DNA of 32,000 bases from an uncultured Candidatus Saccharibacteria bacterium. Its GTDB lineage: Bacteria; Patescibacteriota; UBA1384; JAMDBS01; CAZXAY01. Shown here in pieces: positions 960 through 30,071 of the stretch. Both the position numbers and the translations under genes were made by a program. Positions within the stretch are counted from its first letter, which is position 1; each line of letters starts with the position of its first letter. The DNA is taken from assembly GCA_964638435.1 (NCBI GenBank), contig CAZXAY010000003.1:8431-40430 (forward strand), written 5' to 3'. The notes beneath the pieces were generated by a model. It was given only the letters and a program-made list of their open reading frames with translations, had not been told where the DNA came from and made no database searches.

Positions 960-1011
960 TTTTACCTCCTTGTTAATTAGTGTTTATGAAAATAATTTTG
1001 CCATCTAAAAT

Positions 1012-1159
1012 ATGGATAACGGGGACGGTTCTCTTTTACTCTGGAGTTTTACAATTTTATTAATTACCAAATCCAAATTATTATTATGGATAACGGGGAC
1101 GGTTCTCTTTTACTCTGGAGTTTTACAATTTTATTAATTACCAAATCCAAATTATTATT
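1012..1159. repeat. Perfect 74-bp tandem duplication (2 copies: 1012-1085, 1086-1159)
   Basis: Both copies read atggataacggggacggttctcttttactctggagttttacaattttattaattaccaaatccaaattattatt with no mismatch. Copy 2 overlaps the stop codon of the 1155..1766 CDS. Confidence 0.95.
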
Positions 1160-3358: not shown

Positions 3359-3577
3359 TTAATGTTGATGTTGGCAGGATTTAATCATACCGAGTATTGT
3401 TTTTGCTTCTGACTCATCAATTTTATTAATCGCCAAATCTCCATGACAAAGTAGCCAGTCGCCCTTTTTGGCTTTTGGCACAAGAGAAATATCAACTTCC
3501 TTATCACCATCAACAATAACTTTTAGTTTTTCGTTTTTAGTTTTTAGTTTTATTTGTACTGGTGTTGCTAGACACAT
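3359..3577 (-). CDS. hypC: HypC/HybG/HupF-family hydrogenase maturation chaperone-like protein
   Basis: 72 aa. Starts MCLATP (the family begins MCL(A/G)IP with an essential Cys2). GDWLLCHGDLAI..IDE.EA matches the conserved GDxVLVHxGxAI..IDexeA region. Confidence 0.7.
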   Translation of the reverse strand: MCLATPVQIKLKTKNEKLKVIVDGDKEVDISLVPKAKKGDWLLCHGDLAINKIDESEAKTILGMIKSCQHQH

Positions 3578-3672
3578 ATTTACTCCAGTTAATATTGGTT
3601 AATATCTGTTAATAGAAGTTAATATTAGTTATATAACCGTTATTAACAATTTTTAACCATTGTTAACTATTA

Positions 3673-4632
3673 TTAACCTTTCTTCGAAAGGAGTTTACAC
3701 AAATCCACTAATCGATGAGAATAACCCATTTCATTATCGTACCATGCTGTAATGTGAACAAGGTTACTGTCAACAACTTCAGTTAACTCACTATCAACAA
3801 TTGATGAATATGCGCTACCTCTAAGGTCTGATGATACAAGCGGCTCATCACTTACTAATAATATCCCCTGCATCTTGCCGCTAGCATATTCGCGCAAGAT
3901 ATCATTAACTTCCTGTTTAGTTGTTTTATGCTTTACTAAACAAACTAATTCTACCACTGATACAGTTGGAGTTGGCACTCTAAGTGCAATACCATGCATC
4001 TTACCTGCGAGCTCAGGGATTACTTGTGATATAGCTTTAGCAGCCCCAGTAGACGTTGGTATGATGTTTTCTACAGCGCTACGACCACGACGAGGATCTT
4101 TTTTGTGTGGACCGTCTACAAGGTTTTGATCAGCAGTATACGAGTGTACCGTAGTCATCCAACCTTTTTCTATCACAAACTCTTTGTTAATAGCATAGGC
4201 AATTGGCGCAAGACAATTAGTAGTGCACGATCCCATCGAAATTACATTATGTAATTCAGGATCATATTTTTCTTCATTAACACCCATTACTAGAGTTATG
4301 TCTGCGTCTTCCGATGGAGCCGAAATAATTACCTTCTTAGCCCCAGCTTTAATGTGAGCACTGGCAGCTTCTCTTTTAGTAAAAAATCCTGTTGACTCAA
4401 TAACTAGCTCAACGCCCATTTTTTCCCATGGCAACCTAGCAGGATCTTTCTCAGCTAAAAATGCTAGGTTAATATCTTTATCATACTTACCATAAACAGT
4501 ATCATATTTTAATAAATATTTAAGTTGTTCTATCTCGCCTAAATCATTAGCAACCATAATTGGCAACTCACCATCATTTGCACGATAAAAAGTCCTACCT
4601 ATTCTACCAAATCCATTAATGGCTATGTTCAT
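3673..4632 (-). CDS. gap: Glyceraldehyde-3-phosphate dehydrogenase, type I
   Basis: INGFGRIGR NAD-binding motif, catalytic SCTTNCLAP box, WYDNEMGYS near the C-terminus, AGGAGG upstream. Confidence 0.95.
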   Translation of the reverse strand: MNIAINGFGRIGRTFYRANDGELPIMVANDLGEIEQLKYLLKYDTVYGKYDKDINLAFLAEKDPARLPWEKMGVELVIESTGFFTKREAASAHIKAGAKKVIISAPSEDADITLVMGVNEEKYDPELHNVISMGSCTTNCLAPIAYAINKEFVIEKGWMTTVHSYTADQNLVDGPHKKDPRRGRSAVENIIPTSTGAAKAISQVIPELAGKMHGIALRVPTPTVSVVELVCLVKHKTTKQEVNDILREYASGKMQGILLVSDEPLVSSDLRGSAYSSIVDSELTEVVDSNLVHITAWYDNEMGYSHRLVDLCKLLSKKG

Positions 4633-5524: not shown

Positions 5525-5776
5525 TTAAAATTCAAAATTCCCCCACTTCGCTCAATAGAGCTTCGAGGGACAAGCAATTTTTAATTTTTAATCAATGTTC
5601 AAAACTAAAATCTTAAATCTAAAAGTTAAAATTATAGTATTGAGTTTTTAAATTTAAGTTGTGGCTTTAAGTTTTTCGTTTTTACTTTTAAGTTAATAAC
5701 ATTTGAATTTGATCCGCCTAGGCATCGCTTATGGCGAGACTGGTTAAAAATTACAAATTAAAAATTTGAATTTAAA
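5525..5776. repeat. Composite of three hairpin modules filling the proS-tpiA spacer, two with GC-rich cores (5541-5575, 5714-5743)
   Basis: Module 1: aaaattcaaaattcc + ccccacttcgctcaatagagcttcgagggacaagc + aatttttaattttt. Module 2: aaaactaaaatcttaaatctaaaagtt ... aagtttttcgtttttacttttaagtt. Module 3: tttgaatttgat + ccgcctaggcatcgcttatggcgagactgg + ...aaatttgaattt. Confidence 0.75.
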
Positions 5777-7099
5777 TTACTTCATTAAGTAATTAATTAC
5801 ATCCTTTATCTCCACCAACTTCCCTTTTTCTTGATCACGTTTTTTAATTTCCACTGAATTCTCTTGTAATGTCCTCTCACTTATAATTATTCGCGTTGGG
5901 CAACCAATCAAATCAGCATCAGCGAACTTTTCCCCAGCACTAACTTCCCGATCATCATATAAAACTTCAACCCCAGCATCATATAGCTGATTATATAATT
6001 TCTCTACCTTAGTTTTTGGTTTTGAGTTTTGCTTGTCCCGCGAAGCTTTAGCGGAGTGGGAAGTTTTTAATTCTATCAGATGTACCTGATATGGTGCTAC
6101 CGATTCAGGCCAAACAATCCCTTTGTCATCATAATTACTCTCCACGATCGCACCCATATTTCTGCTAATACCAATCCCATAACAACCCATCAATACTGGC
6201 TGCCTTTGCCCTTTATCATCAATAAAATAATAATTAAATGATTTAGAAAATTTATCGTTGAGCTTAAATATGTTACCAACCTCAATGGTTCTATCAATTT
6301 TTCTGAGCTTTTTATTACCACACTGGGGACATACCCCCTTTTGTTTACCCTGACCTGCCCCGAGTATTCGCGAGGGGGCTGTGTCAAAGGGCTTCTCAGT
6401 AATCTCTTTATTAACTGCAATATTACATTTGTCACATACATGAATTTCATCTTCACCCGCCTCACATGGAACCTGAAATTCATGAGAATATTTACTAAAA
6501 GTTCCACCTGAGGCAAATGTTAAATAAACCTCTTTAAAACCTAACCTTTTAAAGATTTTAACGTAAGCTTTAGTCGCTTTTTCGTAATATTTATCAAGAT
6601 CTTCACTATCTTTATGAAATGAATATAAATCCTTCATCAAAAATTCTCTACCGCGGAGTAAACCTGATTTTGCCCTCACCTCATTACGAAATTTGTTTTG
6701 AATTTGATACACATAACGCGGTAAATCTTTGTAGGAACTAGCAAATTGTTGAACAAGTGGGGTTATAACCTCTTCATGGCTTTGATTTAGCACAAATTCA
6801 CTACCAGAATAAAGTTTTGTTTTAAAAAGTACATCAATATTCTCGCGACCAGTTGTCTTATATTTCTCAATTGATGTCAGAGTTGGCATTAATACCTCTA
6901 CACCACCAATATTATTAATTTCTTCCCGAACGATGTTCTCTATCTTTCTAAGAACCTTTAAACCTAATGGCAAAAAGGTATAAACTCCAGCCATTTCTTT
7001 ATCAATAAACCCACCTTTAATTAAAAGTTGGGCATTTAGTGATGTTTCCTCTTTTGGCACATTTTTTCGGGTTTTAGTAAAAAGCTGACTTAGTTTCAT
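5777..7099 (-). CDS. proS: Prolyl-tRNA synthetase (short form without large editing insertion)
   Basis: Class II motifs FRNEVRAKSGLLRGREFLMKDLYSFH and GCYGIGISR, CxxC...CxxC zinc ribbon, C-terminal anticodon-binding-like domain. Confidence 0.92.
   Translation of the reverse strand: MKLSQLFTKTRKNVPKEETSLNAQLLIKGGFIDKEMAGVYTFLPLGLKVLRKIENIVREEINNIGGVEVLMPTLTSIEKYKTTGRENIDVLFKTKLYSGSEFVLNQSHEEVITPLVQQFASSYKDLPRYVYQIQNKFRNEVRAKSGLLRGREFLMKDLYSFHKDSEDLDKYYEKATKAYVKIFKRLGFKEVYLTFASGGTFSKYSHEFQVPCEAGEDEIHVCDKCNIAVNKEITEKPFDTAPSRILGAGQGKQKGVCPQCGNKKLRKIDRTIEVGNIFKLNDKFSKSFNYYFIDDKGQRQPVLMGCYGIGISRNMGAIVESNYDDKGIVWPESVAPYQVHLIELKTSHSAKASRDKQNSKPKTKVEKLYNQLYDAGVEVLYDDREVSAGEKFADADLIGCPTRIIISERTLQENSVEIKKRDQEKGKLVEIKDVINYLMK
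6011..6068. repeat. In-frame repeat module inside proS (encodes KTSHSAKASRDKQNSKPKT)
   Basis: agtttttggttttgagttttgc + ttgtcccgcgaagctttagcggagtggg + aagttttt. The core is near-identical in pattern to intergenic cores at 5541-5575 (reverse orientation), 22623-22666 and 29970-30020. Confidence 0.75.
6325..6392. repeat. GC-rich in-frame module inside proS (encodes FDTAPSRILGAGQGKQKG)
   Basis: Contains acctgccccgagtattcgcgagggggct. It shares the ACCTGCC(C/T)CG word with gatA 28468-28479 and 28877-28887, and with the reverse complement of 19793-19804. Confidence 0.55.
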
Positions 7100-7103
7100 A
7101 ATT

Positions 7104-7189
7104 TTGTGTTAATCTCCACCAATCATATCTCACTAATTTCACTAACAATATTTTTAGTGAAATTCGTGTAAAAATATTAGTGGAGTTTA
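7104..7189. repeat. About 85-bp hairpin element (family ttgtgttaatctYcaccaatc ... atattagtggagttta), copy 1
   Basis: Ends match the copy at 11913-11993. Internal cactaat/attagtg and ttcactaa/ttagtgaa pairings. Lies between the rseP stop and the proS start. Confidence 0.8.
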
Positions 7190-7221
7190 AATCATTATCA
7201 TTCTATTCTGATTATATCAAA

Positions 7222-8274
7222 CTACCTATTCATTATCCACTTTATAATATCCTGATAGGTTACCAGAGCCATTAAAATTAATAAAAAGATAAAACCAAGC
7301 CAGTGTAAAAAATTTTCTACTTCCGACTTAACAACCTTTTTACCACCAATTCCTTCGAGAACCAAAAATACTAATCTTCCTCCGTCAAGCGCTGGCAATG
7401 GCAAAATATTAAAAAATCCAATAACAATCGAAAGTAAGGCAATAAATCTTAAGACATACAACCAACCAAAACCCACTACTTGGTAAAGTAAAGCAAATAC
7501 TCCGATTGGCCCCGATACTGCCTCAGTAGGAGCCTTAACAGAAGTAAACACCGAACTAATCAATTTCCAAATAAATAATAAATTAAGCCAAATTACCGAA
7601 CCAATTTCTTTGATTGCCTCTATTGGCGCCGTATACCATGGACCCTTGTTAATTTTGCCACCAGTTTCCGCCATGGAAATACCCAGTGGAGCTGTTGCAT
7701 TATTACTTAGTGTAGCTTCTTTGACAATTTCCTTATTAAAACGCTTAATTTTAATTACTATTTTTTCGCCCGAATGCGCAATATTATATTTTGTTACATC
7801 TTCAGCACTAGAAAATACTTGATCATTAATATTGATGATAAAATCATTAGCTCTGATATCTACTAATTGCGCCGGATACCCTTTTTCTACTCCAGTTATT
7901 ACAATTTGATTGGGTAATTCGCTAGGTAAAACCCAAAACCAAATAGTCATTAAAACCCAAGCTAGTACTAGATTTAAAATCACTCCAAAAGTAACAATTT
8001 TGATACGATTCCAAACACTTGCATTAGAAAATGACTTTGGATGATTAATATGCTCTTCTTCGCCAAGCATAGCGCAATACCCACCAATTGGTATAGCATT
8101 AATTGCATAAGTAGTTTCTTTAATCTTCTTTTTCCAAATAGTTGGCTTAAAACCAAAAGCAAATTCCTGAACCTCCACTCCAGCACGCTTAGCCATTATA
8201 AAATGACCAAACTCATGCACCATCACAAGTAAGCCGATAGTAAAAAGAAAGATTATTATAGTAAGAATTAACAT
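7222..8274 (-). CDS. rseP: RIP metalloprotease RseP (site-2 protease, M50)
   Basis: HEFGHF (HExxH) in the first TM region, central PDZ-like segment, C-terminal FNILPLPALDGG motif. Confidence 0.88.
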   Translation of the reverse strand: MLILTIIIFLFTIGLLVMVHEFGHFIMAKRAGVEVQEFAFGFKPTIWKKKIKETTYAINAIPIGGYCAMLGEEEHINHPKSFSNASVWNRIKIVTFGVILNLVLAWVLMTIWFWVLPSELPNQIVITGVEKGYPAQLVDIRANDFIININDQVFSSAEDVTKYNIAHSGEKIVIKIKRFNKEIVKEATLSNNATAPLGISMAETGGKINKGPWYTAPIEAIKEIGSVIWLNLLFIWKLISSVFTSVKAPTEAVSGPIGVFALLYQVVGFGWLYVLRFIALLSIVIGFFNILPLPALDGGRLVFLVLEGIGGKKVVKSEVENFLHWLGFIFLLILMALVTYQDIIKWIMNR

Positions 8275-8941: not shown

Positions 8942-8960
8942 AACAACCTCCAGTTGAACT

Positions 8961-9047
8961 AAAAACTTAAAACGTAAAACTCAAATGTTCATAAATTTTA
9001 ATTTTTAAGTTGTAATTTTTTAGATTTTAGTTTTTACTTTTAAGTTT
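8961..9047. repeat. AT-rich 'ttttagtttt/aaaactaaaa' word hairpin between pyrH and frr
   Basis: aaaaacttaaaacgtaaaactcaaa pairs with tttagattttagtttttacttttaagttt. Confidence 0.7.
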
Positions 9048-10776: not shown

Positions 10777-10976
10777 ATAACCTCCTTAAATTATCTAATT
10801 TCTAATTGACCTAATTGCACTAAATAAATTCCAAATCCCAAGCACCAAATTACAAATAATTTTTAAAATATCAATTATCAAATTCTTAATAAGAAAAAAT
10901 ATTTGTCCCAGTTTTAATCATTGTAATTTAAGTAATTATAATTTATTTGAGATCTGTTATTTGAAATTTAATATAA

Positions 10977-11135
10977 TAGACTTGTTACGTAATAATTTTT
11001 GTAGCGAAAGCTAAGGATTTTGAGTGAAAATAATGAAGAGTGAGCAAGTTGTAACAGAGTTACACTGACGAACTATGAATTATTTTTTAACCAAAATTCT
11101 TAGTTTGCAGTAAAAATGTTATTTCGTAATAAGTC
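10977..11135. mobile_element. MITE-like element, copy A (159 bp), in the rpsB-tsf spacer
   Basis: About 95% identical to 19726-19914 apart from a 30-nt insertion in that copy. Imperfect terminal inverted repeats tagacttgttacgtaataa... / ...ttatttcgtaataagtc(ta). Flanked by TAA/TAA (10974-10976, 11136-11138). Confidence 0.8.
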
Positions 11136-11146
11136 TAAGGTTATAT

Positions 11147-11899
11147 TTATTCTTCAGATTTTTCTGTTTTAGTATCTTTTTTATCTTCAACTACTTTATC
11201 AGATTTTTTTTCTAAATCTTTTTTCGCTCCAACTATAGTTTCTGCGATTAAATTCATAACTATTTCTACTGAAGATTTAGCATCATCATTAGCTGGGATA
11301 AACCAATCAACTTTGTTTGGGTTGGCATCAGTATCACAAACTGCAACTATCGGAATATGTTTCTTTTTTGCTTCACTGACGGCATTATGCTCTTTAACAG
11401 GATCAATAATTAATAGATAATCAGGTAATTCCTTCATTTTTCTAATACCATCGTAAATCTCTTTTTGTTTATTAACTTCTTTATCGAGTAGTGTTCGTTC
11501 TTTTTTAGTTAAGTCAGAACTCTCATCAGCTATCTTTGCCTCTGAATCTTCTAAATATTTTATGCCCTTACGAATGGTTTCAAAATTGGTAAGAATTCCT
11601 CCTAACCATCTTTGAGCAATATATGGCATTTCACTCTTAACAGCTGCATCTTTTACAGATTGTTTAATTTGTTTTTTTGTCCCAACAAATAAAAATACTT
11701 TGCCTATTTTTACTTCTCTTACAATAAATTCTAAAACAAGCTTTAAGAATTCTTGAGTTTTAGTTAAATCAATTACATTAACACCATCACGTAATCCAAA
11801 AATATACTCTTTGGCCTTAGGATGTGAGTGCTCTTTTTTATGACCAAAATGCATACCTGCTAAAAACATTTCTTTAATTTCGGGGATTTTTACTGACAT
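11147..11899 (-). CDS. rpsB: 30S ribosomal protein S2
   Basis: MHFGHKKEHSHPKAKEYIFG..., QRWLGGILTNF, acidic/lysine-rich C-terminal tail. Confidence 0.95.
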   Translation of the reverse strand: MSVKIPEIKEMFLAGMHFGHKKEHSHPKAKEYIFGLRDGVNVIDLTKTQEFLKLVLEFIVREVKIGKVFLFVGTKKQIKQSVKDAAVKSEMPYIAQRWLGGILTNFETIRKGIKYLEDSEAKIADESSDLTKKERTLLDKEVNKQKEIYDGIRKMKELPDYLLIIDPVKEHNAVSEAKKKHIPIVAVCDTDANPNKVDWFIPANDDAKSSVEIVMNLIAETIVGAKKDLEKKSDKVVEDKKDTKTEKSEE

Positions 11900-11912: not shown

Positions 11913-11993
11913 TTGTGTTAATCTTCACCAATCTTTTTGCACGAATTTCACGAAATATTAGTGATATTAGTGTAATGATATTAGTGGAGTTTA
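11913..11993. repeat. About 85-bp hairpin element, copy 2 (same family as 7104-7189)
   Basis: ttgtgttaatcttcaccaatc ... atattagtggagttta. Lies between the rpmE stop and the rpsB start. Confidence 0.8.
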
Positions 11994-15089: not shown

Positions 15090-16652
15090 TTAAACTTTTA
15101 ACTTATTATTAAGTATCTCATTTACAACTTGTGGATTAGCTTGCCCCTTACTCTCCTTCATCACGCATCCAACTAAAAATCCTACAATTTGAGTTTGACC
15201 GCCTTTTATTTTAGCCACCACGTCAGGATTTTTACTAATAACTTTCTCCACAATTTTTTCTAACTCACCAATATCAGAAATTTGTTCTAAACCTCTTTCT
15301 TTAATAATCTCTGATGGTTTTTTACCTTTATACAACTCTGACAAAATTTCTTTAGCTACTGATTTAGAAATTTTTCCAACTTTAATAGTACAAATAAGTT
15401 CTACAAACCATGCTGGGTTAATAGAAAAATCTTTGATATCGTTAATTATCCAAACAGCTAATTCAACTTTTGAATCGTCTGATATTAAATTTGCACATTT
15501 ATCAAATAATTTTGATCGCTCGCTATCAGATATAATCAAATTAGCATCAATTTTATTTAAACCAAATTTATTTTGATATCTATCTAAAACCTCTTCAACA
15601 GTCTCTGGTAATTGCTTAATAATCTCATTTATATTAATTATGTTTTTAGTTTTGAATTTTGGATTTTGGATTTGTTTAGAATTTAGAGTTTCGTGCTTAG
15701 AGTTTCCACCAATTACTACTGGTGGAAGATCTGGTTCCGGAAAATACCTATAATCAGCACTAGTTTCTTTAACTCGCATTATATAGGTTTTGTTTTTTAC
15801 CTCATCCCAACCGCGGGTTTCTTGAACAATTTTACCACCATTTTCAATCTCATCAATTTGTCGCTCAAGCTCAAATTCAATCGCCTTTTCAACTGATTTA
15901 AATGAATTAAGATTCTTAACCTCAACTTTAGTCCCAAATTCCTTTTGCCCTATTGGTTTAACGGAAATATTCGCTTCGCAACGCATTTGTCCCTTTTCCA
16001 TATCAGCGTCTGATACATCAAGCTTGCGAAGTCGCAATTGATAGCTCTGGCAAAACAATTTAGCAATTCTACCAGCCTCATCAATTGGCAAAGTTACAGC
16101 GTCCGTGACCAATTCCATTAGCGGTACGCCAGCCCTATTATAATCCATCAATGAGTAATCTACATCTGCCCTACCCTCCGGGTGTTTGCTTGTCCCAGTA
16201 TCTTCTTCCAAATGAATTCTGGTTATTCCAAAAGTTATTAGTTTTTCGTTTTCAGTTTTTAGTTTGAGCAAACCGCCAGTAACAATTGGTAAATCATATT
16301 GAGATATCTGATATCCTTTTGGTAAGTCTGGATAAAAATAGTTTTTTCGATCCCATTTAGTAAAGGTAGCAATATTGTCGGCTTTTTTATTATTTAAATA
16401 TAATCCAGTTTTTATGGTCATTTCAATCGCCTGTTTATTAAGTACAGGCAACATTCCAGGCATTCCCAAACACACCGGACAAATATTCATATTTTGTTCA
16501 GTTGGTTTAGATTCGCGTCTATTCGTGTTTTCATTCGGCATTATTCGTGTTGTGCTATTTGCACACGAGCAGAACATCTTTGACTGTGTTTTAAGCTCTG
16601 CATGAATCTCCAGCCCAATCACCGCTTCATATTTTTGATTGCTTTTTTTCAT
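15090..16652 (-). CDS. gatB: Asp/Glu-tRNA(Asn/Gln) amidotransferase subunit B
   Basis: YEAVIGLEIHAELKT, GMPGMLPVLN, RIHLEEDTG, YRYFPEPDLPP, C-terminal YqeY-like domain. Confidence 0.93.
   Translation of the reverse strand: MKKSNQKYEAVIGLEIHAELKTQSKMFCSCANSTTRIMPNENTNRRESKPTEQNMNICPVCLGMPGMLPVLNKQAIEMTIKTGLYLNNKKADNIATFTKWDRKNYFYPDLPKGYQISQYDLPIVTGGLLKLKTENEKLITFGITRIHLEEDTGTSKHPEGRADVDYSLMDYNRAGVPLMELVTDAVTLPIDEAGRIAKLFCQSYQLRLRKLDVSDADMEKGQMRCEANISVKPIGQKEFGTKVEVKNLNSFKSVEKAIEFELERQIDEIENGGKIVQETRGWDEVKNKTYIMRVKETSADYRYFPEPDLPPVVIGGNSKHETLNSKQIQNPKFKTKNIININEIIKQLPETVEEVLDRYQNKFGLNKIDANLIISDSERSKLFDKCANLISDDSKVELAVWIINDIKDFSINPAWFVELICTIKVGKISKSVAKEILSELYKGKKPSEIIKERGLEQISDIGELEKIVEKVISKNPDVVAKIKGGQTQIVGFLVGCVMKESKGQANPQVVNEILNNKLKV
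15642..15704. repeat. In-frame AT-word module inside gatB (encodes NSKHETLNSKQIQNPKFKTKN)
   Basis: gtttttagttttgaattttggattttggatttgtttagaatttagagtttcgtgcttagagtt. Shares the tttagaatttaga and ggattttggattt words with gatA 28495-28533. Confidence 0.75.
16510..16550. repeat. In-frame 'attcgtgtt' word module inside gatB (encodes TRIMPNENTNRRES)
   Basis: gattcgcgtctattcgtgttttcattcggcattattcgtgt. The same cacgaat/attcgtg words occur in the intergenic hairpins at 7104-7189 and 11913-11993. Confidence 0.6.
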
Positions 16653-16721
16653 AATTCATAATTCCCTGCCCGCCATCGCAAGCTCAGGCGTTGCGGGCGT
16701 GGCTAATTCATAATTCTGAAT
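16653..16721. repeat. GC-core hairpin (16664-16703) flanked by direct aattcataattc words
   Basis: aattcataattc + cctgcccgccatcgcaagctcaggcgttgcgggcgtgg + ctaattcataattc. Core stem gcccgc/gcgggc. The core resembles 5714-5743 (reverse orientation) and 19774-19803. Confidence 0.8.
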
Positions 16722-16775
16722 TTATTTTAACTCCGCATGTATCTCTAATCCAATAACCGCCTCGTATTTTGGCAT
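16722..16775 (-). pseudogene. Ghost 5' end of gatB (17 codons plus stop)
   Basis: ATG CCA AAA TAC GAG GCG GTT ATT GGA TTA GAG ATA CAT GCG GAG TTA AAA TAA gives MPKYEAVIGLEIHAELK*. Across YEAVIGLEIHAELK it differs from the real gatB at 10 of 42 nt, all synonymous. Confidence 0.8.
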
Positions 16776-19399: not shown

Positions 19400-20140
19400 C
19401 TAATACCTCCATTATTTCCCAGCTAAATTCATTTAATTTATGCTTGGAATGTTGTTTTATTAAACCATAATAACTTGACGCATTATTTATGTTTAGCCTG
19501 CTCTTAATCCTTTTTAAATTTCGTTTGTTCAAACTCCTTTTATCTGGGTATATTACAACTCCTAAAAATTTTATTCCGCGCCTAGCTTTAACTATAATGT
19601 CATTTTTTAAATTAATCTTTAAAAGTAAACTATTTTCTATAAACCTAATTGTATTTTCTCGTATTTCTTCTAATTTAGCAAGATCCTTATCTAAAATTAT
19701 AAAATCATCTCCATAGCGCAAATATTAGACTTGTTACGTAATAATTTTTGTAGCGAAAGCTAAGAATTTTGAGCCCGCCTTGACTCGGATCAGGCGAGGC
19801 AGGTGAAAATAATGAAGAGCGAGGAAGTTGTAACAGAGTTACGCTGACGAACTATGAATTATTTTTTAACCAAAATTATTAGTTTGTAGTAAAAATGTTA
19901 TTTCGTAATAAGTCTATTGTTTTATTTTTAATTTATGTTTAATAAACCTGTCTAACTCGTTCAAATAAATATTGGCAAAAATCTAACTAGTTAGGTTGCC
20001 AATTGGCAAGCCCTTTCTATTAAGACCCCCCCCCAATGTCTGTTGAATTGTCATTCTGAGCTTGCGAAGAATCTCTATTATAACCATCAATAACAAAATT
20101 GATTATCTTTTTAACATTTGGACAATCAACTCGTCTAAAA
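19389..20140 (-). pseudogene. DGR-type reverse transcriptase, decayed (5'-truncated, frameshifted, nonsense codon, split by MITE)
   Basis: My minus-strand translation gives ...RRVDCPNVKKIINFVIDGYNRDSSQAQNDNSTDIGGG (frameshift in the G9 run) LNRKGLPIGNLTS*IFANIYLNELDRFIKHKLKIKQ | MITE | YLRYGDDFIILDKDL...FLGVVIYPD...SSYYGLIKQHSKHKL. This covers RT motif 4 with the DGR-typical IGxxxSQ (Q codon is TAG here), motif 5 YGDD, and motifs 6-7. Confidence 0.8.
19726..19914. mobile_element. MITE-like element, copy B (189 bp), inserted in the RT gene, carrying a nested 30-nt GC hairpin (19774-19803)
   Basis: Same termini as copy A, flanked by TAT/TAT (19723-19725, 19915-19917). Deleting 19726-19917 (192 nt) joins ...KHKLKIKQ to YLRYGDDF in frame. 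Confidence 0.85.
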
Positions 20141-20161: not shown

Positions 20162-21283
20162 TTAAAGTCCAATGGTTTGTGGTAACATTACCGAGGAGCG
20201 AACGCCGGAGCCGGAAACGCCGAGATTGTCCCCGCTCAAATCAGCCTGACAGCCGTAGCGATCCCAACGGCAGACCGGCGCCCCACCGGAAACCAAAGAA
20301 GCTATTAAATAACAAGCTCTTGCTTGATCATCTATTTGCTGGTTAGTTTGTTGTAAATGAATAATTGCATAAATTAACCAATCTTGGATAACTAAACCCA
20401 TTTCATTAGCATATTGGGGATCTTCTTGAAGTTTTTTCAGATAATCTATTGGTGATTGGTTGGCTTCCAATTGTTTCCTTGCCTGACCTGAGCTATGTCG
20501 AAGGGTTTTACCCTGACCCTTTGCTGGTAAGTCTGGCAAATTTTCTATCAGTTTAATAGACCAGCCATTAGTGGGCTTAACTTTGTTAAGATACGCTTGA
20601 TATTGTTTATTCTTTTCTTTAGTAATTCCAGTAAGAAGCTCATTAAGGGTAAAACCTTTAAAGCTTGGATCAGTAAAGTCTTTGGGGTAATAGGTCATTT
20701 TAGTATTGCCATCTTGGTCTTCTTGATCACAATTAAGGTATCCATCCCAAATAAAGATTGGATCAAATTTAGTAGAATCATTATCATCTTCTTTGAGTTC
20801 TAAGGACGAGCCATCTGTAGATAGGAGTTTACCTTCTTTATGTTTTTTAATGATTAACTGTTTGTATCTTGATATTAGTATTTCCAGTGGTAGAACCATA
20901 GGAGTAAGAAGCAATTTAGTAAATCCTTGAGATTCTTTAAGTTCAAGTATTTGCAGTTGTTCGGGGGTGATTTGGGAAAGGATTTCTTCATAGGTGGGAA
21001 TAGGATATTCTTTGATTTTAGTACTGTCATGGGGGTCAACTCCAAGAACACCAATATCTTGGCAGTCTAGGAGTATGTCAATAACTCCTGTTTCATTAAG
21101 AGTTTTAACTTGGGACTCCCATTGAACTTTAAGCTGGAGCTTTTCTGAAAGAGCTTCTAGTTTAACTTGATGCTCAGTTTTTTCTGGAGTATCAGTAAGG
21201 CTGAGATCCTTCGCTCCACTAAGACTAACATCGGGTTGAGTTTCTTGAGCTTGATTAAATTGTTGGGGTAATTGTTCGGACAT
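20162..21283 (-). CDS. Candidate DGR variable protein, paralog A (373 aa)
   Basis: Paralogous to 22752..23816 over most of its length. The C-terminal ~40 codons are GC-rich, A-poor and hyperdivergent, ending in a conserved VMLPQT. The stop lies about 20 nt from the RT remnant. Confidence 0.75.
   Translation of the reverse strand: MSEQLPQQFNQAQETQPDVSLSGAKDLSLTDTPEKTEHQVKLEALSEKLQLKVQWESQVKTLNETGVIDILLDCQDIGVLGVDPHDSTKIKEYPIPTYEEILSQITPEQLQILELKESQGFTKLLLTPMVLPLEILISRYKQLIIKKHKEGKLLSTDGSSLELKEDDNDSTKFDPIFIWDGYLNCDQEDQDGNTKMTYYPKDFTDPSFKGFTLNELLTGITKEKNKQYQAYLNKVKPTNGWSIKLIENLPDLPAKGQGKTLRHSSGQARKQLEANQSPIDYLKKLQEDPQYANEMGLVIQDWLIYAIIHLQQTNQQIDDQARACYLIASLVSGGAPVCRWDRYGCQADLSGDNLGVSGSGVRSSVMLPQTIGL
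20193..20311 (-). other. Putative variable region (VR) of paralog A
   Basis: Roughly two-thirds G+C by eye, in a ~30% GC genome. In the 75-nt core, A is the rarest coding-strand base (8/75 by my count). Bounded 3' by a block identical to paralog B (ggtttgtggtaacattacc, 20174-20192). Confidence 0.6.
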
Positions 21284-22751: not shown

Positions 22752-23816
22752 TCAATTGGTTTGTGGTAACATTACCACGGGACGGGAACCGCAGTCCCCG
22801 TACGAGAAGTCAGGGAAGTCTCCGTACAAGTCCGCCCGACGGTTGTCGCGACTCCAATAGTAGCGCAGCACTTTGCCAGCTAGGTATGATCCAGTTAACC
22901 AACAAGCTTTCCCTTTGCTTCGCCAGTCATCTATTTGCTGATTGGTTTCTTGTAATTGGGTAATAGCGTAAATGAGCCAACTTTCTAAGGTTAAACCTTG
23001 TTCGTGGGTATATTGTGGGTCTGTTTGGAGTTGGTTTAGATAATCTATTGGGGTTTGGTTGGCTTCTAATTGTTTTCTTTCATTAAGGGTTTTGCCTTGG
23101 TTTTGGGCAGGTAAATCAGGGTTGTCTTCGATAAATAGTATTTGCCAACCATTAGTGGATTTAAGCTTATCAAGTCTTAGTTGATGTTGGTGATTATTAG
23201 CTTTTCCTGATATTAATTCTGATTTAACAAAGCCTTGGTGATTATCTTTATCAAATTGCTCTGGATAGTAAATTAGTCTGCCATCAGTGTCAGCATTCTT
23301 AATATCATCCCAAACATAGACTGGGTCAAATTTAGTAGAATCATTATCATCTTTTTTGAGTTCTAAAGACGAGCCATCAGTAGCTAAGAGTTTACCTTCT
23401 TGATGTTTTTTAATGAGTAATTGCTTGTATCTATCGATTAAGGTTTCAAGGTGCGCGCCAATTGGAACTAGTAGCATTTTAGTAAAGCCTTGTTCTTGTT
23501 TAGTTTCTAATACTTTAAGTTGTTCTGGGGTAATTTTAGATAAGATTTCTTCATAGGTGGAAATAGGATATTCTTTGATTTTAGTACTGTCATGGGGGTC
23601 AACTCCAATAACACCAATATCTTGGCAGTCTAGGAGTATGTCAATAACTCCTGTTTCATTAAGAGTTTTAACTTGGGACTCCCATTGAACTTTAAGCTGG
23701 AGCTTTTCTGAAAGAGCTTCAAGACGTAGGAGGTGTTCAGATTCTCTTGTTTCGGTGTTAGTCTGAGATAAGTCTGGGTCAGTCGGTATTAAGTTGTAAG
23801 GCAATTGTTCTGGCAT
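22752..23816 (-). CDS. Candidate DGR variable protein, paralog B (354 aa)
   Basis: Same family as 20162..21283, with a GC-rich hypervariable C-terminus ...LRYYWSRDNRRADLYGDFPDFSYGDCGSRPVVMLPQTN. The W...RA...P...G(x)RPVV pattern resembles C-type-lectin/FGE-type DGR VR scaffolds. Confidence 0.75.
   Translation of the reverse strand: MPEQLPYNLIPTDPDLSQTNTETRESEHLLRLEALSEKLQLKVQWESQVKTLNETGVIDILLDCQDIGVIGVDPHDSTKIKEYPISTYEEILSKITPEQLKVLETKQEQGFTKMLLVPIGAHLETLIDRYKQLLIKKHQEGKLLATDGSSLELKKDDNDSTKFDPVYVWDDIKNADTDGRLIYYPEQFDKDNHQGFVKSELISGKANNHQHQLRLDKLKSTNGWQILFIEDNPDLPAQNQGKTLNERKQLEANQTPIDYLNQLQTDPQYTHEQGLTLESWLIYAITQLQETNQQIDDWRSKGKACWLTGSYLAGKVLRYYWSRDNRRADLYGDFPDFSYGDCGSRPVVMLPQTN
22777..22901 (-). 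other. Putative variable region (VR) of paralog B
   Basis: GC-rich, with 14/75 A on the coding strand in the core. Bounded 3' by the identical block ggtttgtggtaacattacc (22758-22776). Confidence 0.6.
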
Positions 23817-27857: not shown

Positions 27858-28310
27858 TTATATCGCTCCCAAATTATGTAATCCTAACTTAAAATTATTT
27901 AAAGTTTTCCCTGCTTCGATACTAGTTAATTTATAACCCATTTCATGCGATATTTGATTACGAACTTTATGAGAATTCCAAACTTGCTGATATTTATTGT
28001 AGTCCATTTTCGATTCCAAACTTCTTAACCGATCAGCAAAGCTATCACCCTTTGCCCCAACCTGTTTCATCATACTATCAAAAAATTTATCAGCCTCGAT
28101 TATAGCTTGTTTGGCATGAATTTCGTCTCCACTTTCTAACATTTTTTCGATAATAAGCCAATTAGCTAAATTTTGAACTTTATTTATATTTTCGTTTTTA
28201 GTTTTTAGTTTTAAGATTTTCTTAATCGGCCAACATAATAAAAACCATAAACCTCTCAAGAGACTAAGTACTAATGTTTCTATTAAACTAGTTTGTTTTT
28301 TTCTCTTCAT
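27858..28310 (-). CDS. Membrane-anchored hypothetical protein (150 aa)
   Basis: N-terminal TM segment. Contains the repeat-encoded LKLKTKNENI stretch (28189-28215). No family recognised. Confidence 0.5.
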   Translation of the reverse strand: MKRKKQTSLIETLVLSLLRGLWFLLCWPIKKILKLKTKNENINKVQNLANWLIIEKMLESGDEIHAKQAIIEADKFFDSMMKQVGAKGDSFADRLRSLESKMDYNKYQQVWNSHKVRNQISHEMGYKLTSIEAGKTLNNFKLGLHNLGAI

Positions 28311-28332: not shown

Positions 28333-29949
28333 TTATATGTTACATGATTTCATATGCCAATCTGTTTCTTGTTGATATTGATGCGCAATAGAAAGAATAA
28401 TTTCTTCCCCAAATTGTGGCCCTAAAATTTGCATCCCAATTGGAAGATATGTGATTTGTGATTTGTGACCTGCCTCGCCGACGGACGGGTTTGTGATTTT
28501 TTTAGAATTTAGAACTTCGGATTTTGGATTTTCCACGTATCCACAAGGAATTGAAACTCCCGGGATTCCTGCGATATTGGCTGTAACAGTGTAAATATCC
28601 TCCAAATACATTTGCACTGGGTCTTTAACTTTATCTCCAAATTTAAATGGCATTGTTGGTGTTGTTGGAGTTAAAATCGCATCAACTTTTTCATATGCTT
28701 TTTTAAAATCTTCTATTACCAAAGTTCTAACTTTCATCGCTTTTTTGTAATATTTATCGTAATATCCCGCAGACAAAACATATGTTCCCATCATAATTCG
28801 TCGCTTAGCTTCAGCACCGAAACCCTGAGCTCGATTAAAATTATAATAATCAACCAAAGTTTTTAGTTTTTCATTTCCTGCCTCGAGCGTAGTCGAGAAG
28901 CTAGTTTTTAGTTTGTCTGCCGAAAACCCATATTTAATTCCGTCGTATCGAGCTAAGTTTGACGATACTTCAGCAGGTTGAATAATATAATAACATGCTA
29001 AACCATAATCCGTCATTGGTAAACTAATTTCTACAAATTTTGCTCCTAGTTTTTCTAATACTTTCTTTGCCTCATCAATTTTTCCAGCAATTCTTGAATC
29101 TAATCCTTTAGCAAAATATTCTTTTGGTAATCCAATCTTAAAAGTTTTTAAATTTAAACTGTGGTTTTTAGTTTTAAGCTTTAAATTTTTAGTTATATTT
29201 TCAGCTGAAAATATTTTATTCGGCACCGTTGTCGAATCCAGTGGATCATGTCCTCCAATAATTTCTTGTATTATTGCCACATCTTCAGCACTCCTTGCAA
29301 ATGGCCCAGGACAATCTAGACTAGAAGCCATAGCAATAATCCCAAATCTAGAATTTCGGCCATAAGTTGGTTTTAAACCAGTTATTCCGCAATATGCAGC
29401 TGGCTGACGGATTGAGCCACCAGTGTCCGTTCCAATAGAAGCAAAACCCATATTTACGGCGACGGCAACAGCCGATCCACCAGAAGAACCACCAGGCACC
29501 CTTTCTAAATCCCATGGATTTTTTGTTGGTCCAAAATCAGAATTCTCGGTTGATGATCCATGTGCCCAAGCATCTAAATTATTTTTGCCAATTATTACAG
29601 CGCCAGCATCTTTAAGTCTTTTAACTACAGTTGCATCATATGGCGGTATAAAATCTTCAAGCATTTTACTAGCTGCTGTAGTTTTTATACCATTTGTACA
29701 AAATAAATCTTTAATTGATATCGGCACACCATCTATTTGGCTTCTCTGCTCACCGCTCACCCTTCTCAAATCAGACTTCTGAGCCTGTTCAAGCGCCTCT
29801 TTTTCAGTCAAAGTTATAAATGCATGAACTTTTGGTTCAACTTCTTTAACACGCTCAAAAACCATCTTCGTTAATTCTACCGAAGAAATCTTTTTTTCAT
29901 CTAACATTTGGGAAATTTTTTTAATTGTTTTGTTTAAAATTACATTCAT
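28333..29949 (-). CDS. gatA: Asp/Glu-tRNA(Asn/Gln) amidotransferase subunit A
   Basis: Amidase signature GGSSGGSAVAVA..GTDTGGSIRQPA, KDLFCT..TTAASKML, C-terminal LPIGMQILG. Confidence 0.93.
   Translation of the reverse strand: MNVILNKTIKKISQMLDEKKISSVELTKMVFERVKEVEPKVHAFITLTEKEALEQAQKSDLRRVSGEQRSQIDGVPISIKDLFCTNGIKTTAASKMLEDFIPPYDATVVKRLKDAGAVIIGKNNLDAWAHGSSTENSDFGPTKNPWDLERVPGGSSGGSAVAVAVNMGFASIGTDTGGSIRQPAAYCGITGLKPTYGRNSRFGIIAMASSLDCPGPFARSAEDVAIIQEIIGGHDPLDSTTVPNKIFSAENITKNLKLKTKNHSLNLKTFKIGLPKEYFAKGLDSRIAGKIDEAKKVLEKLGAKFVEISLPMTDYGLACYYIIQPAEVSSNLARYDGIKYGFSADKLKTSFSTTLEAGNEKLKTLVDYYNFNRAQGFGAEAKRRIMMGTYVLSAGYYDKYYKKAMKVRTLVIEDFKKAYEKVDAILTPTTPTMPFKFGDKVKDPVQMYLEDIYTVTANIAGIPGVSIPCGYVENPKSEVLNSKKITNPSVGEAGHKSQITYLPIGMQILGPQFGEEIILSIAHQYQQETDWHMKSCNI
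28450..28533. repeat. In-frame repeat module inside gatA (encodes ENPKSEVLNSKKITNPSVGEAGHKSQIT)
   Basis: gtgatttgtgatttgtg + acctgcctcgccgacggacggg + tttgtgattttt + ttagaatttagaacttcggattttggattttc. The 12-mer acctgcctcgcc is the reverse complement of ggcgaggcaggt in MITE copy B (19793-19804). Confidence 0.8.
28858..28917. repeat. In-frame repeat module inside gatA (encodes KLKTSFSTTLEAGNEKLKT)
   Basis: agtttttagttttt + catttcctgcctcgagcgtagtcgagaagct + agtttttagttt. A GC core lies between direct copies of the AT word. Confidence 0.8.
29141..29195. repeat. In-frame AT-word stretch inside gatA (encodes KNLKLKTKNHSLNLKT)
   Basis: aaagtttttaaatttaaactgtggtttttagttttaagctttaaatttttagtt, the same ttttagtttt word family. 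Confidence 0.55.
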
Positions 29950-30071
29950 ATTATTTAAAAATTATTTATCCCACGAAACTTTCTTGACCAGCGTAGCATT
30001 AGCGAAAGTAGTGAAGTGGGAAAAAATTGAATTTTGAATTTGTTTTGTACCTAAAATACAAAAAAAATATA

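What the first reader, a model, noticed from the sequence alone, without database searches (positions are those of the whole stretch)
15642..16550. gatB carries the same kind of in-frame modules, sharing words with gatA
15642-15704 encodes NSKHETLNSKQIQNPKFKTKN between the conserved FPEPDLPPVVI and the LPE segment. It uses tttagaatttaga and ggattttggattt, the same words as gatA 28495-28533 (peptides LNSK and NPK in both). 16510-16550 encodes TRIMPNENTNRRES between the FCSC and CPVC zinc-ligand pairs, and it is made of attcgtgtt words seen in the intergenic hairpins. 16238-16268 (KLKTENEKL) matches ttagtttttcgttttt, which is also present in hypC (3521-3551), in the 150-aa ORF (28189-28215) and in intergenic DNA (5669-5694). 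Two subunits of one enzyme thus carry related repeat-derived peptides.
Basis: partly seen in the sequence, partly recalled or inferred. Interest (0 to 1): 0.7.

Follow-up and report, generated by a model that had tools for sequence, protein, structure and literature searches.

The report
Dispersed repeat copies inside gatB/gatA
Two extra loops in the essential enzyme subunit GatB, and matching ones in GatA, of this candidate-phylum bacterium are in-frame copies of short-period repeat DNA; the main one is one arm of an AT-rich hairpin repeat that also occurs, nearly unchanged, in bacteria of many other phyla.

Summary
gatB (15090-16652, minus strand) is an intact GatB. It carries +14 aa in the zinc-ligand loop and +22 aa in the linker after PEPDLPPVVI, relative to its own family and to solved structures. 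Both segments are predicted to be disordered. KLKTENEKL is a folded beta-hairpin of normal length.

The window, and related Berkelbacteria loci, have a unique excess of period-7 DNA tracts: 9 against 0.04 expected, with other periods at background.

The linker insert is nine heptamers (63 nt). It is one arm of a roughly 180-nt palindromic, heptamer-phased, AT-rich repeat. I found more than 120 copies in genomes of 31-64% GC, including Desulfobacterota, Planctomycetota, Aminicenantes and several CPR groups. Most copies are intergenic hairpins. Some sit in frame in UvrA, TopA, MnmA and LigA.

gatA carries a partial copy in the same reading frame. The zinc-loop insert belongs to a second widespread family, ACACGAAT units 10-12 nt apart.

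Most likely these are selfish or mutational repeat copies that survive only in permissive surface loops, as Rickettsia palindromic elements do. No name, Rfam or Pfam family, or paper was found for the heptamer element. The phenomenon is not specific to GatCAB.

The parts
15090..16652 (-). gatB coding sequence, 520 aa, intact
   Evidence: Pfam GatB_N 7e-102 and GatB_Yqey 8e-38. Identical to P0001, named by NCBI as uncultured bacterium ACD_58C00036G0003. The AlphaFold model matches GatB chains at TM 0.74-0.85.
15642..15704 (-). Linker insert, residues 317-337. Nine heptamers (63 nt) forming one arm of the widespread heptamer-phased palindromic repeat, read in frame
   Evidence: Heptamer layout. 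nhmmer 45.6 bits, E 2.6e-13, over 15646-15716. A flank-only matrix that excludes the 24-nt search core scores 28.4 bits, rank 1 of 63,784 positions. +22 aa over the family mode. pLDDT below 50 at residues 317-335.
16509..16550 (-). Zn-loop insert, residues 35-48. Four ..CGAAT units spaced 10, 12 and 10 nt, of the ACACGAAT repeat type
   Evidence: +14 aa between C30 and C58 against the family mode of 13 residues. Absent from Aquifex and Thermotoga GatB. The orthologous insert in L003 has four GACACGAAT units at the same spacing. More than 120 such arrays occur in metagenomes, with dominant spacing 10 nt. pLDDT below 50 at residues 35-41 and 44-49.
16239..16265 (-). KLKTENEKL beta-hairpin, written in AAAAACK heptamers. 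Normal length, not an added loop
   Evidence: Period-7 tract. 86% identical over 37 nt to hypC 3514-3550 (family D5). Same length as the Aquifex hairpin. Strands 128-132 and 138-150 with pLDDT about 87-91. The site varies from 11 to 30 residues among relatives and holds different heptamer arrays.
28441..28536 (-). gatA C-terminal insert, residues 472-503: a partial arm copy, a GC-rich centre, then TCACAAA heptamers
   Evidence: nhmmer 22.0 bits, E 5e-6, at 28496-28546. 27-aa insertion against 4wj3_A. Absent from most relatives. Period-7 tract at 28445-28473.
29131..29202 (-). gatA insert, residues 250-273 (NLKLKTKNHSLNLKT), of the AAAAACT/TTAAA heptamer family
   Evidence: 53 nt at 81% identity to intergenic 5643-5695 (family D4). 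+10 aa against 4wj3_A.
28846..28920 (-). gatA insert, residues 344-368: AAACTAAAAACT direct repeats flanking a GC-rich 26-nt core
   Evidence: 15-aa insertion against 4wj3_A. Sequence.
30027..30045 (-). Intergenic remnant of the arm core (AAACAAATTCAAAATTCAA) upstream of gatA, followed by a hairpin
   Evidence: 19/19 match to the consensus, 10.1 bits, which is at the level of shuffled controls.
5597..5695 (-). Intergenic hairpin whose two arms are heptamer arrays
8957..9047 (-). Intergenic hairpin of inverted heptamer arrays
   Evidence: Inverted repeats I6, I8 and I12. Period-7 tracts.
3517..3555 (-). AAAAACK heptamer array inside hypC (QIKLKTKNEKLKV)
   Evidence: The orthologous hypC in L002 has a period-7 tract at the same place.
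28183..28221 (-). AAAAACK heptamer array inside the 150-aa ORF

Best explanation
The extra segments of GatB and GatA are in-frame copies of short-period repeat DNA that pervades this lineage.

**The linker module.** The segment at 15642-15704 is one arm, nine 7-nt units, of a non-coding AT-rich palindromic repeat of roughly 180 nt. The arm consensus is AAATCCG AAATCCG AATWTCG AAATCCG AAACAAA TTCAAAA TTCAAAT GTYCAAA ATTCAAA AC. This repeat is dispersed within genomes and occurs in many bacterial phyla. The Zn-loop module comes from a second family of ACACGAAT units spaced 10-12 nt.

**Why only some copies survive in genes (inferred).** A copy persists in a gene only under three conditions:
- its length is a multiple of three;
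- the A-rich strand is the sense strand, in a stop-free frame that yields a hydrophilic Lys/Asn/Gln/Ser peptide;
- the site is a solvent-exposed loop that tolerates extra length.

The peptides are then disordered passengers, and the arrays go on changing by gain and loss of units.

**What is shown.** Homology of the modules to the repeat families. Their status as insertions. The period-7 excess. The predicted disorder. Lineage-specific presence and absence.

**What is inferred.** That the peptides are neutral passengers, and how the repeat spreads. No transposase or target duplication was found. Candidate routes are mobilisation in trans, ectopic recombination, or hairpin or slippage templating.
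For: **Period 7 is the only over-represented period.**
- Window: 9 tracts against 0.04 in shuffles, with lags 4-12 otherwise 0-1.
- Non-coding autocorrelation peaks at lags 7, 14 and 21.
- Related loci L001-L004 show the same.
- Inside ORFs: 9 against 1.1 after codon shuffling.

**One ordered module recurs at different sites and in different proteins.**
- [ANYCKAA]x4-ACAAATY-[CAAAATY]x2-3 occurs at three different GatB sites in L001, L002 and L003.
- The peptide ETLNSKQ also sits in the GatA insert of relative P0124.

**The repeat is widespread and defined.**
- A 24-nt pattern gives more than 120 hits in one-genome-per-species contigs from many phyla, with locus GC 0.31-0.64.
- These copies share about 20-nt flanks on each side of the pattern.
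- In 77 of 113 copies the core pairs with a downstream inverted arm.
- Two copies in one genome share arms and loop over about 180 nt.

**The gatB and gatA modules match it.**
- A profile built from those copies scores gatB at 45.6 bits and gatA at 22.0 bits. The best shuffled window scores 10.3 bits.
- A flank-only matrix scores gatB at 28.4 bits, rank 1 of 63,784 positions.

**In-frame copies occur elsewhere.** UvrA, TopA, ATP-dependent ligase, MnmA and a helicase-like protein carry one arm. LigA of L001 carries both arms.

**The segments are lineage-specific insertions.**. They are predicted to be disordered.

**The Zn-loop family is real.**
Against: - No mobilising enzyme, target-site duplication or empty-versus-filled site pair was found, so 'mobile' is inferred from distribution only.
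- The linker insert occupies the same site in four GatB lineages that are 57-59% identical to the window's GatB (the window, P0010, P0014, P0017). Against L001 it is 75% identical at nucleotide level, compared with 67% for the whole gene. That is more conserved than a neutral loop should be, although the A-rich composition inflates identity.
- Five of the nine in-ORF period-7 tracts in the window lie in gatA or gatB. This could hint at something specific to this enzyme.
- The search pattern was derived from these modules, so the core match of gatB to the profile is circular. Only the flank test, the gatA hit and the structure of the external copies are independent.
- Expression of the inserts as protein is not shown.
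Confidence: 0.7

Rival explanations
1. There is no dispersed element. Each segment arose on the spot by polymerase slippage of 7-nt (and 10-nt) units in an AT-rich genome. The modules then converged because only a few stop-free hydrophilic unit sequences are tolerated. This would resemble the low-complexity inserts of Plasmodium proteins.
For: - Heptameric simple repeats are reported as over-represented in many bacteria. [quoted passage not shown]
- Unit numbers vary between copies.
- Some arrays are homogeneous and local, for example CTAACAG in L001 GatB and TCACAAA in gatA.
- Pure ATTCTAA arrays would create an in-frame TAA every third unit, so selection alone would force some mosaicism (read directly from the sequence).
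Against: - The arm is an ordered series of different units. The order is conserved over about 65 nt in genomes of 31-64% GC and in unrelated proteins and sites.
- It includes the non-A-rich unit AAGCACG at a fixed position.
- Intergenic copies face no reading-frame selection, yet they have the same order.
Confidence: 0.15
2. The inserts are selected, functional appendages. For example, Lys/Asn-rich flexible segments at the GatB cradle-to-helical-domain hinge and near the GatA C-terminus might increase tRNA binding or tune the domain movement of GatCAB in these reduced-genome bacteria.
For: - The linker insert has net positive charge (five Lys, one His, one Glu), read from the sequence.
- It sits at the boundary where HMMER splits GatB into two aligned domains.
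- It is retained at the same site in four lineages.
- Nucleotide identity is above the gene average.
- gatA and gatB hold 5 of the 9 in-ORF tracts.
Against: - Sixteen of 34 close GatB relatives have no extra residues at this linker site.
- The sequence varies between lineages.
- The identical module occurs in enzymes that do not bind tRNA, namely UvrA, TopA and ligases, and in intergenic DNA.
- The segment is predicted to be disordered.
Confidence: 0.1
3. The segments are ancestral loops of ordinary length, and the word sharing is a by-product of AT-rich composition.
For: - The KLKTENEKL hairpin has the same length as in Aquifex GatB and is well folded.
- CACGAAT is not enriched in the window.
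Against: - The Zn loop is +14 aa and the linker +22 aa over the family mode and over solved structures.
- Dinucleotide, local and codon shuffles all fail to reproduce the words or the period-7 tracts.
Confidence: 0.03

Closest known systems
Rickettsia palindromic elements (RPE); Ogata et al. 2000, as summarised in PMC10969869
   Same: - A dispersed, non-autonomous palindromic repeat of about 100-200 nt.
- Found in frame in many unrelated housekeeping genes.
- Adds peptides compatible with the host fold.
- No known transposase.
   Different: - RPEs are confined to Rickettsia. This repeat occurs across many phyla.
- Its arms are built of phased 7-nt units.
- Most genic copies here are a single arm.
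- Sequence relatedness to RPE families was not tested.
Bacterial MITEs with intragenic in-frame copies (ERIC, BOX, Coxiella QMITE; PMC10969869, PMC5896051)
   Same: Small size, inverted arms, many copies, no coding capacity, and occasional in-frame fusions.
   Different: - No target-site duplication and no parent insertion sequence were found.
- The inverted arms are about 65 nt of tandem sub-repeats, which is closer to eukaryotic foldback elements (my own knowledge).
Heptameric simple repeats: cyanobacterial STRR, Nostoc GGGGA(T/C)T, Xanthomonas GGGAATC (PMC4692102), and the Geobacter metallireducens four-heptamer element at 49 inter- and intragenic sites (PMC2700814)
   Same: - Period 7.
- Mostly intergenic.
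- Often in inverted pairs.
- Variable unit number.
- Some copies inside genes.
- Function unknown.
   Different: - Those arrays are near-homogeneous, G-rich and specific to a genus.
- This arm is AT-rich.
- It is an ordered series of different units, conserved between phyla.
Tandem repeats that create disordered regions in proteins of Borg elements, and Asn/Lys-rich low-complexity inserts of Plasmodium proteins (my own knowledge, not checked here)
   Same: Nucleotide-level repeats give hydrophilic disordered loops in otherwise conserved proteins of AT-rich genomes.
   Different: Those arise locally by tandem expansion. Here a defined sequence recurs at unrelated loci and in unrelated organisms.

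Membership tests
GatB (Asp/Glu-tRNA amidotransferase subunit B) | GatB_N catalytic (cradle) domain plus the GatB/YqeY tail domain, with the GatB fold | tested here: met
   Pfam 7e-102 and 8e-38. PDB sequence hit 3h0l_B at 9e-115. Foldseek TM 0.74-0.85 to GatB chains.
Rickettsia palindromic elements | Dispersed repeat inserted in frame in unrelated housekeeping genes | tested here: met
   GatB (three sites), GatA, LigA, UvrA, TopA, MnmA and an ATP-dependent ligase.
Rickettsia palindromic elements | The inserted unit is itself a palindrome of about 100-150 bp | tested here: not met
   The gatB and gatA copies are single arms of 63 and about 50 nt. Intergenic copies and the LigA copy are palindromic.
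Rickettsia palindromic elements | Sequence belongs to one of the described RPE families | not tested
MITE | Terminal inverted repeats, small size, no ORF, multiple copies per genome | tested here: met
   77 of 113 copies pair with an inverted arm. Element about 180 nt. Several genomes have 2-3 copies among the first 120 hits.
MITE | Target-site duplication | tested here: inconclusive
   No direct repeat is visible at the ends of two same-genome copies. The ends are blurred by the variable number of units.
MITE | A related autonomous element with a transposase between the same arms | tested here: inconclusive
   In 133 loci only one distant arm pair was found, and it flanks murC, not a transposase. 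Whole genomes were not searched.
Heptameric simple-sequence repeats (STRR type) | Head-to-tail arrays of 7-nt units | tested here: met
   TRF lists about 25 period-7 arrays. Lag-7 statistics.
Heptameric simple-sequence repeats (STRR type) | One unit sequence repeated (homogeneous array) | tested here: not met
   The arm is an ordered series of different units. Some local arrays in the window are homogeneous.
Any Rfam RNA family | Match at the curated gathering score | tested here: not met
   No hit in the window. No hit on the element in 15 loci that carry it.

The most novel reading that the evidence does not exclude
The heptamer-phased AT-rich hairpin may be a single non-coding element that moves between bacterial phyla and multiplies within genomes without a transposase of its own. 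It would do so through its hairpin or by unit slippage. It would then act as a general source of new disordered Lys/Asn-rich loops in essential proteins. It might also account for part of the long-noted, unexplained excess of 7-nt repeats in bacterial genomes.
Probability: 0.3. Interest if true: 0.8.

Novelty: new variant of a known kind. Interest (0 to 1): 0.62.

Why it matters
**Origin of the extra loops.** The result explains where lineage-specific loops in conserved CPR proteins come from. It shows that length differences among GatB and GatA orthologues of this clade are repeat insertions at five hot spots, not gradual divergence.

**A concrete sequence handle.** It gives a roughly 65-nt arm consensus for a repeat that occurs from Patescibacteria to Planctomycetota and Desulfobacterota. 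That repeat has no Rfam or Pfam entry, and I found no paper on it. Databases hold it only as unnamed 30-75-aa 'hypothetical proteins'.

**Practical value.**
- Such modules can be masked in alignments, phylogenies and structure prediction.
- The spurious small ORFs called on them can be flagged.
- Assemblies that break at them can be recognised.

**Scientific value.** This makes the mechanism behind period-7 repeats, and the tolerance of essential enzymes to random peptide insertion, directly testable.

Tried and rejected
**Searches that found nothing**
- Rfam and tRNA scans of the window, and Rfam on 15 loci carrying the element. No family covers the element; the only hit in those loci was an unrelated DUF3800-V RNA in L111.
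- Pfam on six-frame translations of the element.
- BLAST of a consensus hairpin against PLSDB plasmids. No match, but the low-complexity filter may have masked the query.
- IMG/VR scan: only 13 hits, so the element is not typically phage-borne.
- Full-text searches for the DNA and peptide strings and for several keyword sets. No paper describes this element.

**Ideas tested and dropped**
- A transposase between distant arms. The only pair found flanks murC.
- Insert lengths quantised in 7-aa (21-nt) steps. The 7-, 14- and 21-aa cases fit, but +15, +16 and +18 aa are also common.
- GC-rich hairpins ending in GGCAGG as an obligate partner of the arms. There is no enrichment near arms across phyla (0.71 against 0.81 per kb), and only marginal enrichment in the window (6 against 2.2).
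- Unusual DNA conservation of the hairpin segment between the window and L004. It is 86% against 68% gene-wide, but within the range of the best-conserved windows.
- Two plus-strand flank-matrix hits near 7380 and 8169. On inspection they are ordinary A-rich antisense sequence.

**Technical failure**
It was rerun as a doubled 42-aa profile.
Full report
**Source and gene.** The window is about 31% G+C, and nearly all genes are on the minus strand. The ORF at 15090-16652(-) is a full GatB: Pfam GatB_N at 7e-102 and GatB_Yqey at 8e-38. Its protein is identical to P0001, which NCBI names 'uncultured bacterium ACD_58C00036G0003'. The named close relatives are Candidatus Berkelbacteria and Patescibacteria. 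From my own knowledge, ACD58 was the earlier label of Berkelbacteria. gatA is 28333-29949(-).

**Check of the observation.**
- TTTAGAATTTAGA occurs only in gatB and gatA (2 hits against 0.41 expected).
- GGATTTTGGATTT gives 3 hits against 0.15 expected.
- The two genes share a collinear 33-nt stretch at 82% identity (family D19).
- TTAGTTTTTCGTTTTT with up to 2 mismatches gives 10 hits against 0.35 expected. They fall in hypC, intergenic DNA, gatB and the 150-aa ORF.
- The exception is ATTCGTGTT. It occurs only at the two gatB sites, and the 7-mer CACGAAT is not enriched in the window (4 against 2.15).

**Are the segments insertions?**
- Against Aquifex, Thermotoga and Staphylococcus GatB, the stretch between the two Cys pairs is about 15 residues longer. 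HMMER breaks the alignment after PPVVI and resumes about 26 residues later. KLKTENEKL aligns without gaps.
- In an alignment of 34 relatives, five sites vary in length. The window's GatB is +14 aa at the Zn loop, where the family mode is 13 residues in 21 of 34 sequences. It is +5 aa at the hairpin and +22 aa at the linker, where the mode is 16 residues in 16 of 34 sequences.
- An AlphaFold model (mean pLDDT 80.7) has pLDDT below 50 at residues 35-41, 44-49 and 317-335. The hairpin at 128-150 is confidently folded. The model superposes on GatB structures at TM 0.74-0.85.
- GatA has three insertions against 4wj3_A, of +10, +15 and +27 aa. They are lineage-specific among relatives.

**A 7-nt phase.**
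- Tandem Repeats Finder lists about 25 period-7 arrays in 32 kb.
- Non-coding DNA shows autocorrelation peaks at lags 7, 14 and 21.
- Stringent lag-7 tracts number 9 against 0.04 in locally shuffled sequence. Lags 4-12 otherwise give 0-1.
- Four related, syntenic loci from other samples show the same lag-7 excess, and there too the tracts lie in GatB inserts.
- Inside ORFs the count is 9 against 1.1 after codon shuffling. Five of the nine are in gatA or gatB.
- A 7-nt unit returns to the same frame every 21 nt, so such arrays are read in all three phases.

**The linker module is an arm of a widespread repeat.**
- Laid out in sevens, 15642-15704 reads ACTCTAA GCACGAA ACTCTAA ATTCTAA ACAAATC CAAAATC CAAAATT CAAAACT AAAAACA.
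- The same ordered series occurs at three different GatB sites in L001, L002 and L003. The peptide ETLNSKQ also sits in the GatA insert of relative P0124.
My rough estimate of the chance expectation, assuming equal base frequencies, is about 0.5 hits in 596 Gb.
- The records carrying hits are named as Desulfobacterales, Syntrophobacteria, Planctomycetia, Aminicenantes, Omnitrophica, Nitrospirota, Dehalococcoidia, Verrucomicrobiota, Saccharibacteria, WWE3, Sungbacteria and others. Locus G+C ranges from 0.31 to 0.64.
- The copies share about 20 conserved bases on each side of the pattern. In 77 of 113 copies the core pairs with a downstream inverted arm.
- Two copies in one genome are alike over about 180 nt, covering arm, loop and arm, and differ outside that.
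- A profile built from these external copies scores gatB at 45.6 bits (E 2.6e-13) and gatA at 22.0 bits (E 5e-6). The best score in 60 locally shuffled windows is 10.3 bits.
- The pattern came from gatB-type modules, so the core match is circular. I therefore scored only the 41 flanking columns. gatB gets 28.4 bits, rank 1 of 63,784 positions; the next unrelated position scores 15.1. The non-A-rich unit AAGCACG sits at the same place in gatB as in many external copies.

**Behaviour of the repeat elsewhere.**
- Of 112 copies, 91 are intergenic. The four orientations of flanking genes are equally frequent (20, 18, 18, 17). This does not fit a dedicated terminator or promoter element.
- No transposase lies between arms.
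- It is rare in viral contigs (13 hits) and absent from plasmid records.
- It has no Rfam family, and its translations have no Pfam family.
- A profile of the module peptide retrieves mainly unnamed 30-75-aa 'hypothetical proteins'. These are small ORFs that gene callers place on the repeat.
- True in-frame copies occur in UvrA (L014), TopA (L060), an ATP-dependent ligase (L062), MnmA (L099) and a helicase-like protein (L076). A T-rich arm lies in a non-ribosomal peptide synthetase (L035). I assigned these protein identities from sequence motifs; they were not run against Pfam.
- LigA of L001 carries both arms in frame.
- All but LigA among the A-rich genic copies use the frame that gives ..SEI(R/L)N(S/P)KQIQN(S/P)K... 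This is the most hydrophilic of the three open frames, by reading the consensus.

**The Zn-loop module.**
- It contains four ..CGAAT words spaced 10, 12 and 10 nt. The orthologous insert of L003 has four GACACGAAT units with the same spacing. The insert is therefore internally repetitive and is shared by a subclade: P0001, P0002, P0004-6, P0008 and P0011.
- Arrays of three or more ACACGAAT units 10-12 nt apart are abundant in metagenomes. Some arrays have an inverted partner.

**The hairpin.**
- KLKTENEKL is written in AAAAACK units. It is 86% identical over 37 nt to the array in hypC (family D5). AAAAACKAAAAAC occurs 5 times against 0.02 expected.
- The hairpin is of normal length and is folded. 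In relatives the same tip holds other arrays: the arm in L002 and L003, and CTAACAG units in L001.
- I read this as a permissive tip whose sequence has been overwritten by repeat DNA, not as an added loop.

**Mechanism and rivals.**
- My best explanation (0.7) is that repeat copies land, or are copied, into genes and are filtered by selection for frame, strand and site. This leaves disordered hydrophilic passengers at permissive loops. The arrays then drift by unit gain and loss.
- Purely local slippage (0.15) fits the literature on heptameric repeats (PMC4692102). It does not explain an ordered about 65-nt series that is conserved in intergenic DNA across phyla.
- A selected role in tRNA binding or hinge tuning (0.1) is suggested by the positive charge, the hinge position, retention in four lineages, and 75% against 67% nucleotide identity. 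Against it, the same module occurs in unrelated enzymes and is absent from many GatB relatives.
- Ancestral loops and chance (0.03) are excluded for two of the three segments.

**Comparison with known systems.** The closest parallel is the Rickettsia palindromic element (PMC10969869). Other parallels:
- MITEs with in-frame copies;
- heptameric repeats of Nostoc, Xanthomonas and Calothrix (PMC4692102);
- the Geobacter metallireducens four-heptamer element at 49 inter- and intragenic sites (PMC2700814).

The differences are three: the cross-phylum distribution of one defined sequence, arms built of phased 7-nt units, and mostly single-arm genic copies. I found no description of this element. My literature access is limited, so I rate it a new variant of a known kind.

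**Limits.**
- Only 32 kb of this genome was available.
- The taxon names of the external hits are those of the metagenome bins.
- Mobility, translation of the inserts and their neutrality are inferences.

Noticed in passing
window 16648-16775 (minus strand): Just upstream of gatB lies a mini-ORF with its own ribosome-binding site. It encodes MPKYEAVIGLEIHAELK followed by a stop, and so duplicates the gatB N-terminus. It is 35/45 nt identical, and all ten differences are synonymous. After it come a GC-rich hairpin (CACGCCCGC...GCGGGCAGG) and AATTATG heptamers that supply the present start codon. L001 keeps the AATTATG start context but has no such relic; L002 has neither.
   Followed up: partly
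window 16665, 28469 and 28877 (minus strand): Three GC-rich inserts of 20-40 nt end in RGGCAGG and sit directly against heptamer arrays. One is upstream of gatB and two are inside gatA. RGGCAGG is marginally enriched in the window (6 against 2.2 expected). It is not enriched near arms in other phyla.
   Followed up: partly
L001 4451-4594: The NAD-dependent DNA ligase of a related bacterium carries a complete two-arm hairpin of the repeat in frame (..EKFEARSKKHETNSKHLENSNFENFKIVSDFGFRNSKI..).
   Followed up: partly
window 1011-1158: A perfect tandem duplication of a 74-nt unit (2.0 copies, 100% identity) lies between two minus-strand ORFs. It could be real or an assembly artefact (family D6).
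   Followed up: no
window 3587-3678: Two inverted arrays of a 10-nt unit (AGTTAATATT x4.5 and TTATTAACCA x4.9) form a long palindrome between GAPDH and hypC.
   Followed up: no
window 7098-7201 and 11913-11993: A palindromic intergenic element of about 100 nt is present twice at 83-89% identity, upstream of proS and of ORF 11147-11899. It contains the CACGAAT/ATTCGTG words (20 families D13 and D15).
   Followed up: partly
window 10973-11161 and 19722-19940: Two stretches of 52 and 138 nt are repeated 8.7-8.8 kb apart at 90-96% identity (families D3 and D10).
   Followed up: no
window 20162-21283 and 22752-23816: Two neighbouring ORFs of 373 and 354 aa share 76-82% identical DNA over 150-300 nt. 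They are probably tandem paralogues (families D1 and D2).
   Followed up: no
window 28333-29949: The protein collection holds this GatA only as a 372-aa fragment (P0122, 100% identity, 69% coverage), named ACD_58C00213G0010. gatB is on contig ACD_58C00036. The original assembly therefore appears to have broken inside gatA.
   Followed up: no
window 5777-7099, residues 355-364: ProRS contains a period-7 tract encoding DKQNSKPKTK. ProRS lengths differ among relatives: 440 aa here, 404 in L001 and 474 in L002.
   Followed up: no
L082 around 4617; L169: ACACGAAT decamer arrays lie directly next to the heptamer arm in some genomes. The two repeat types may be parts of composite elements.
   Followed up: no
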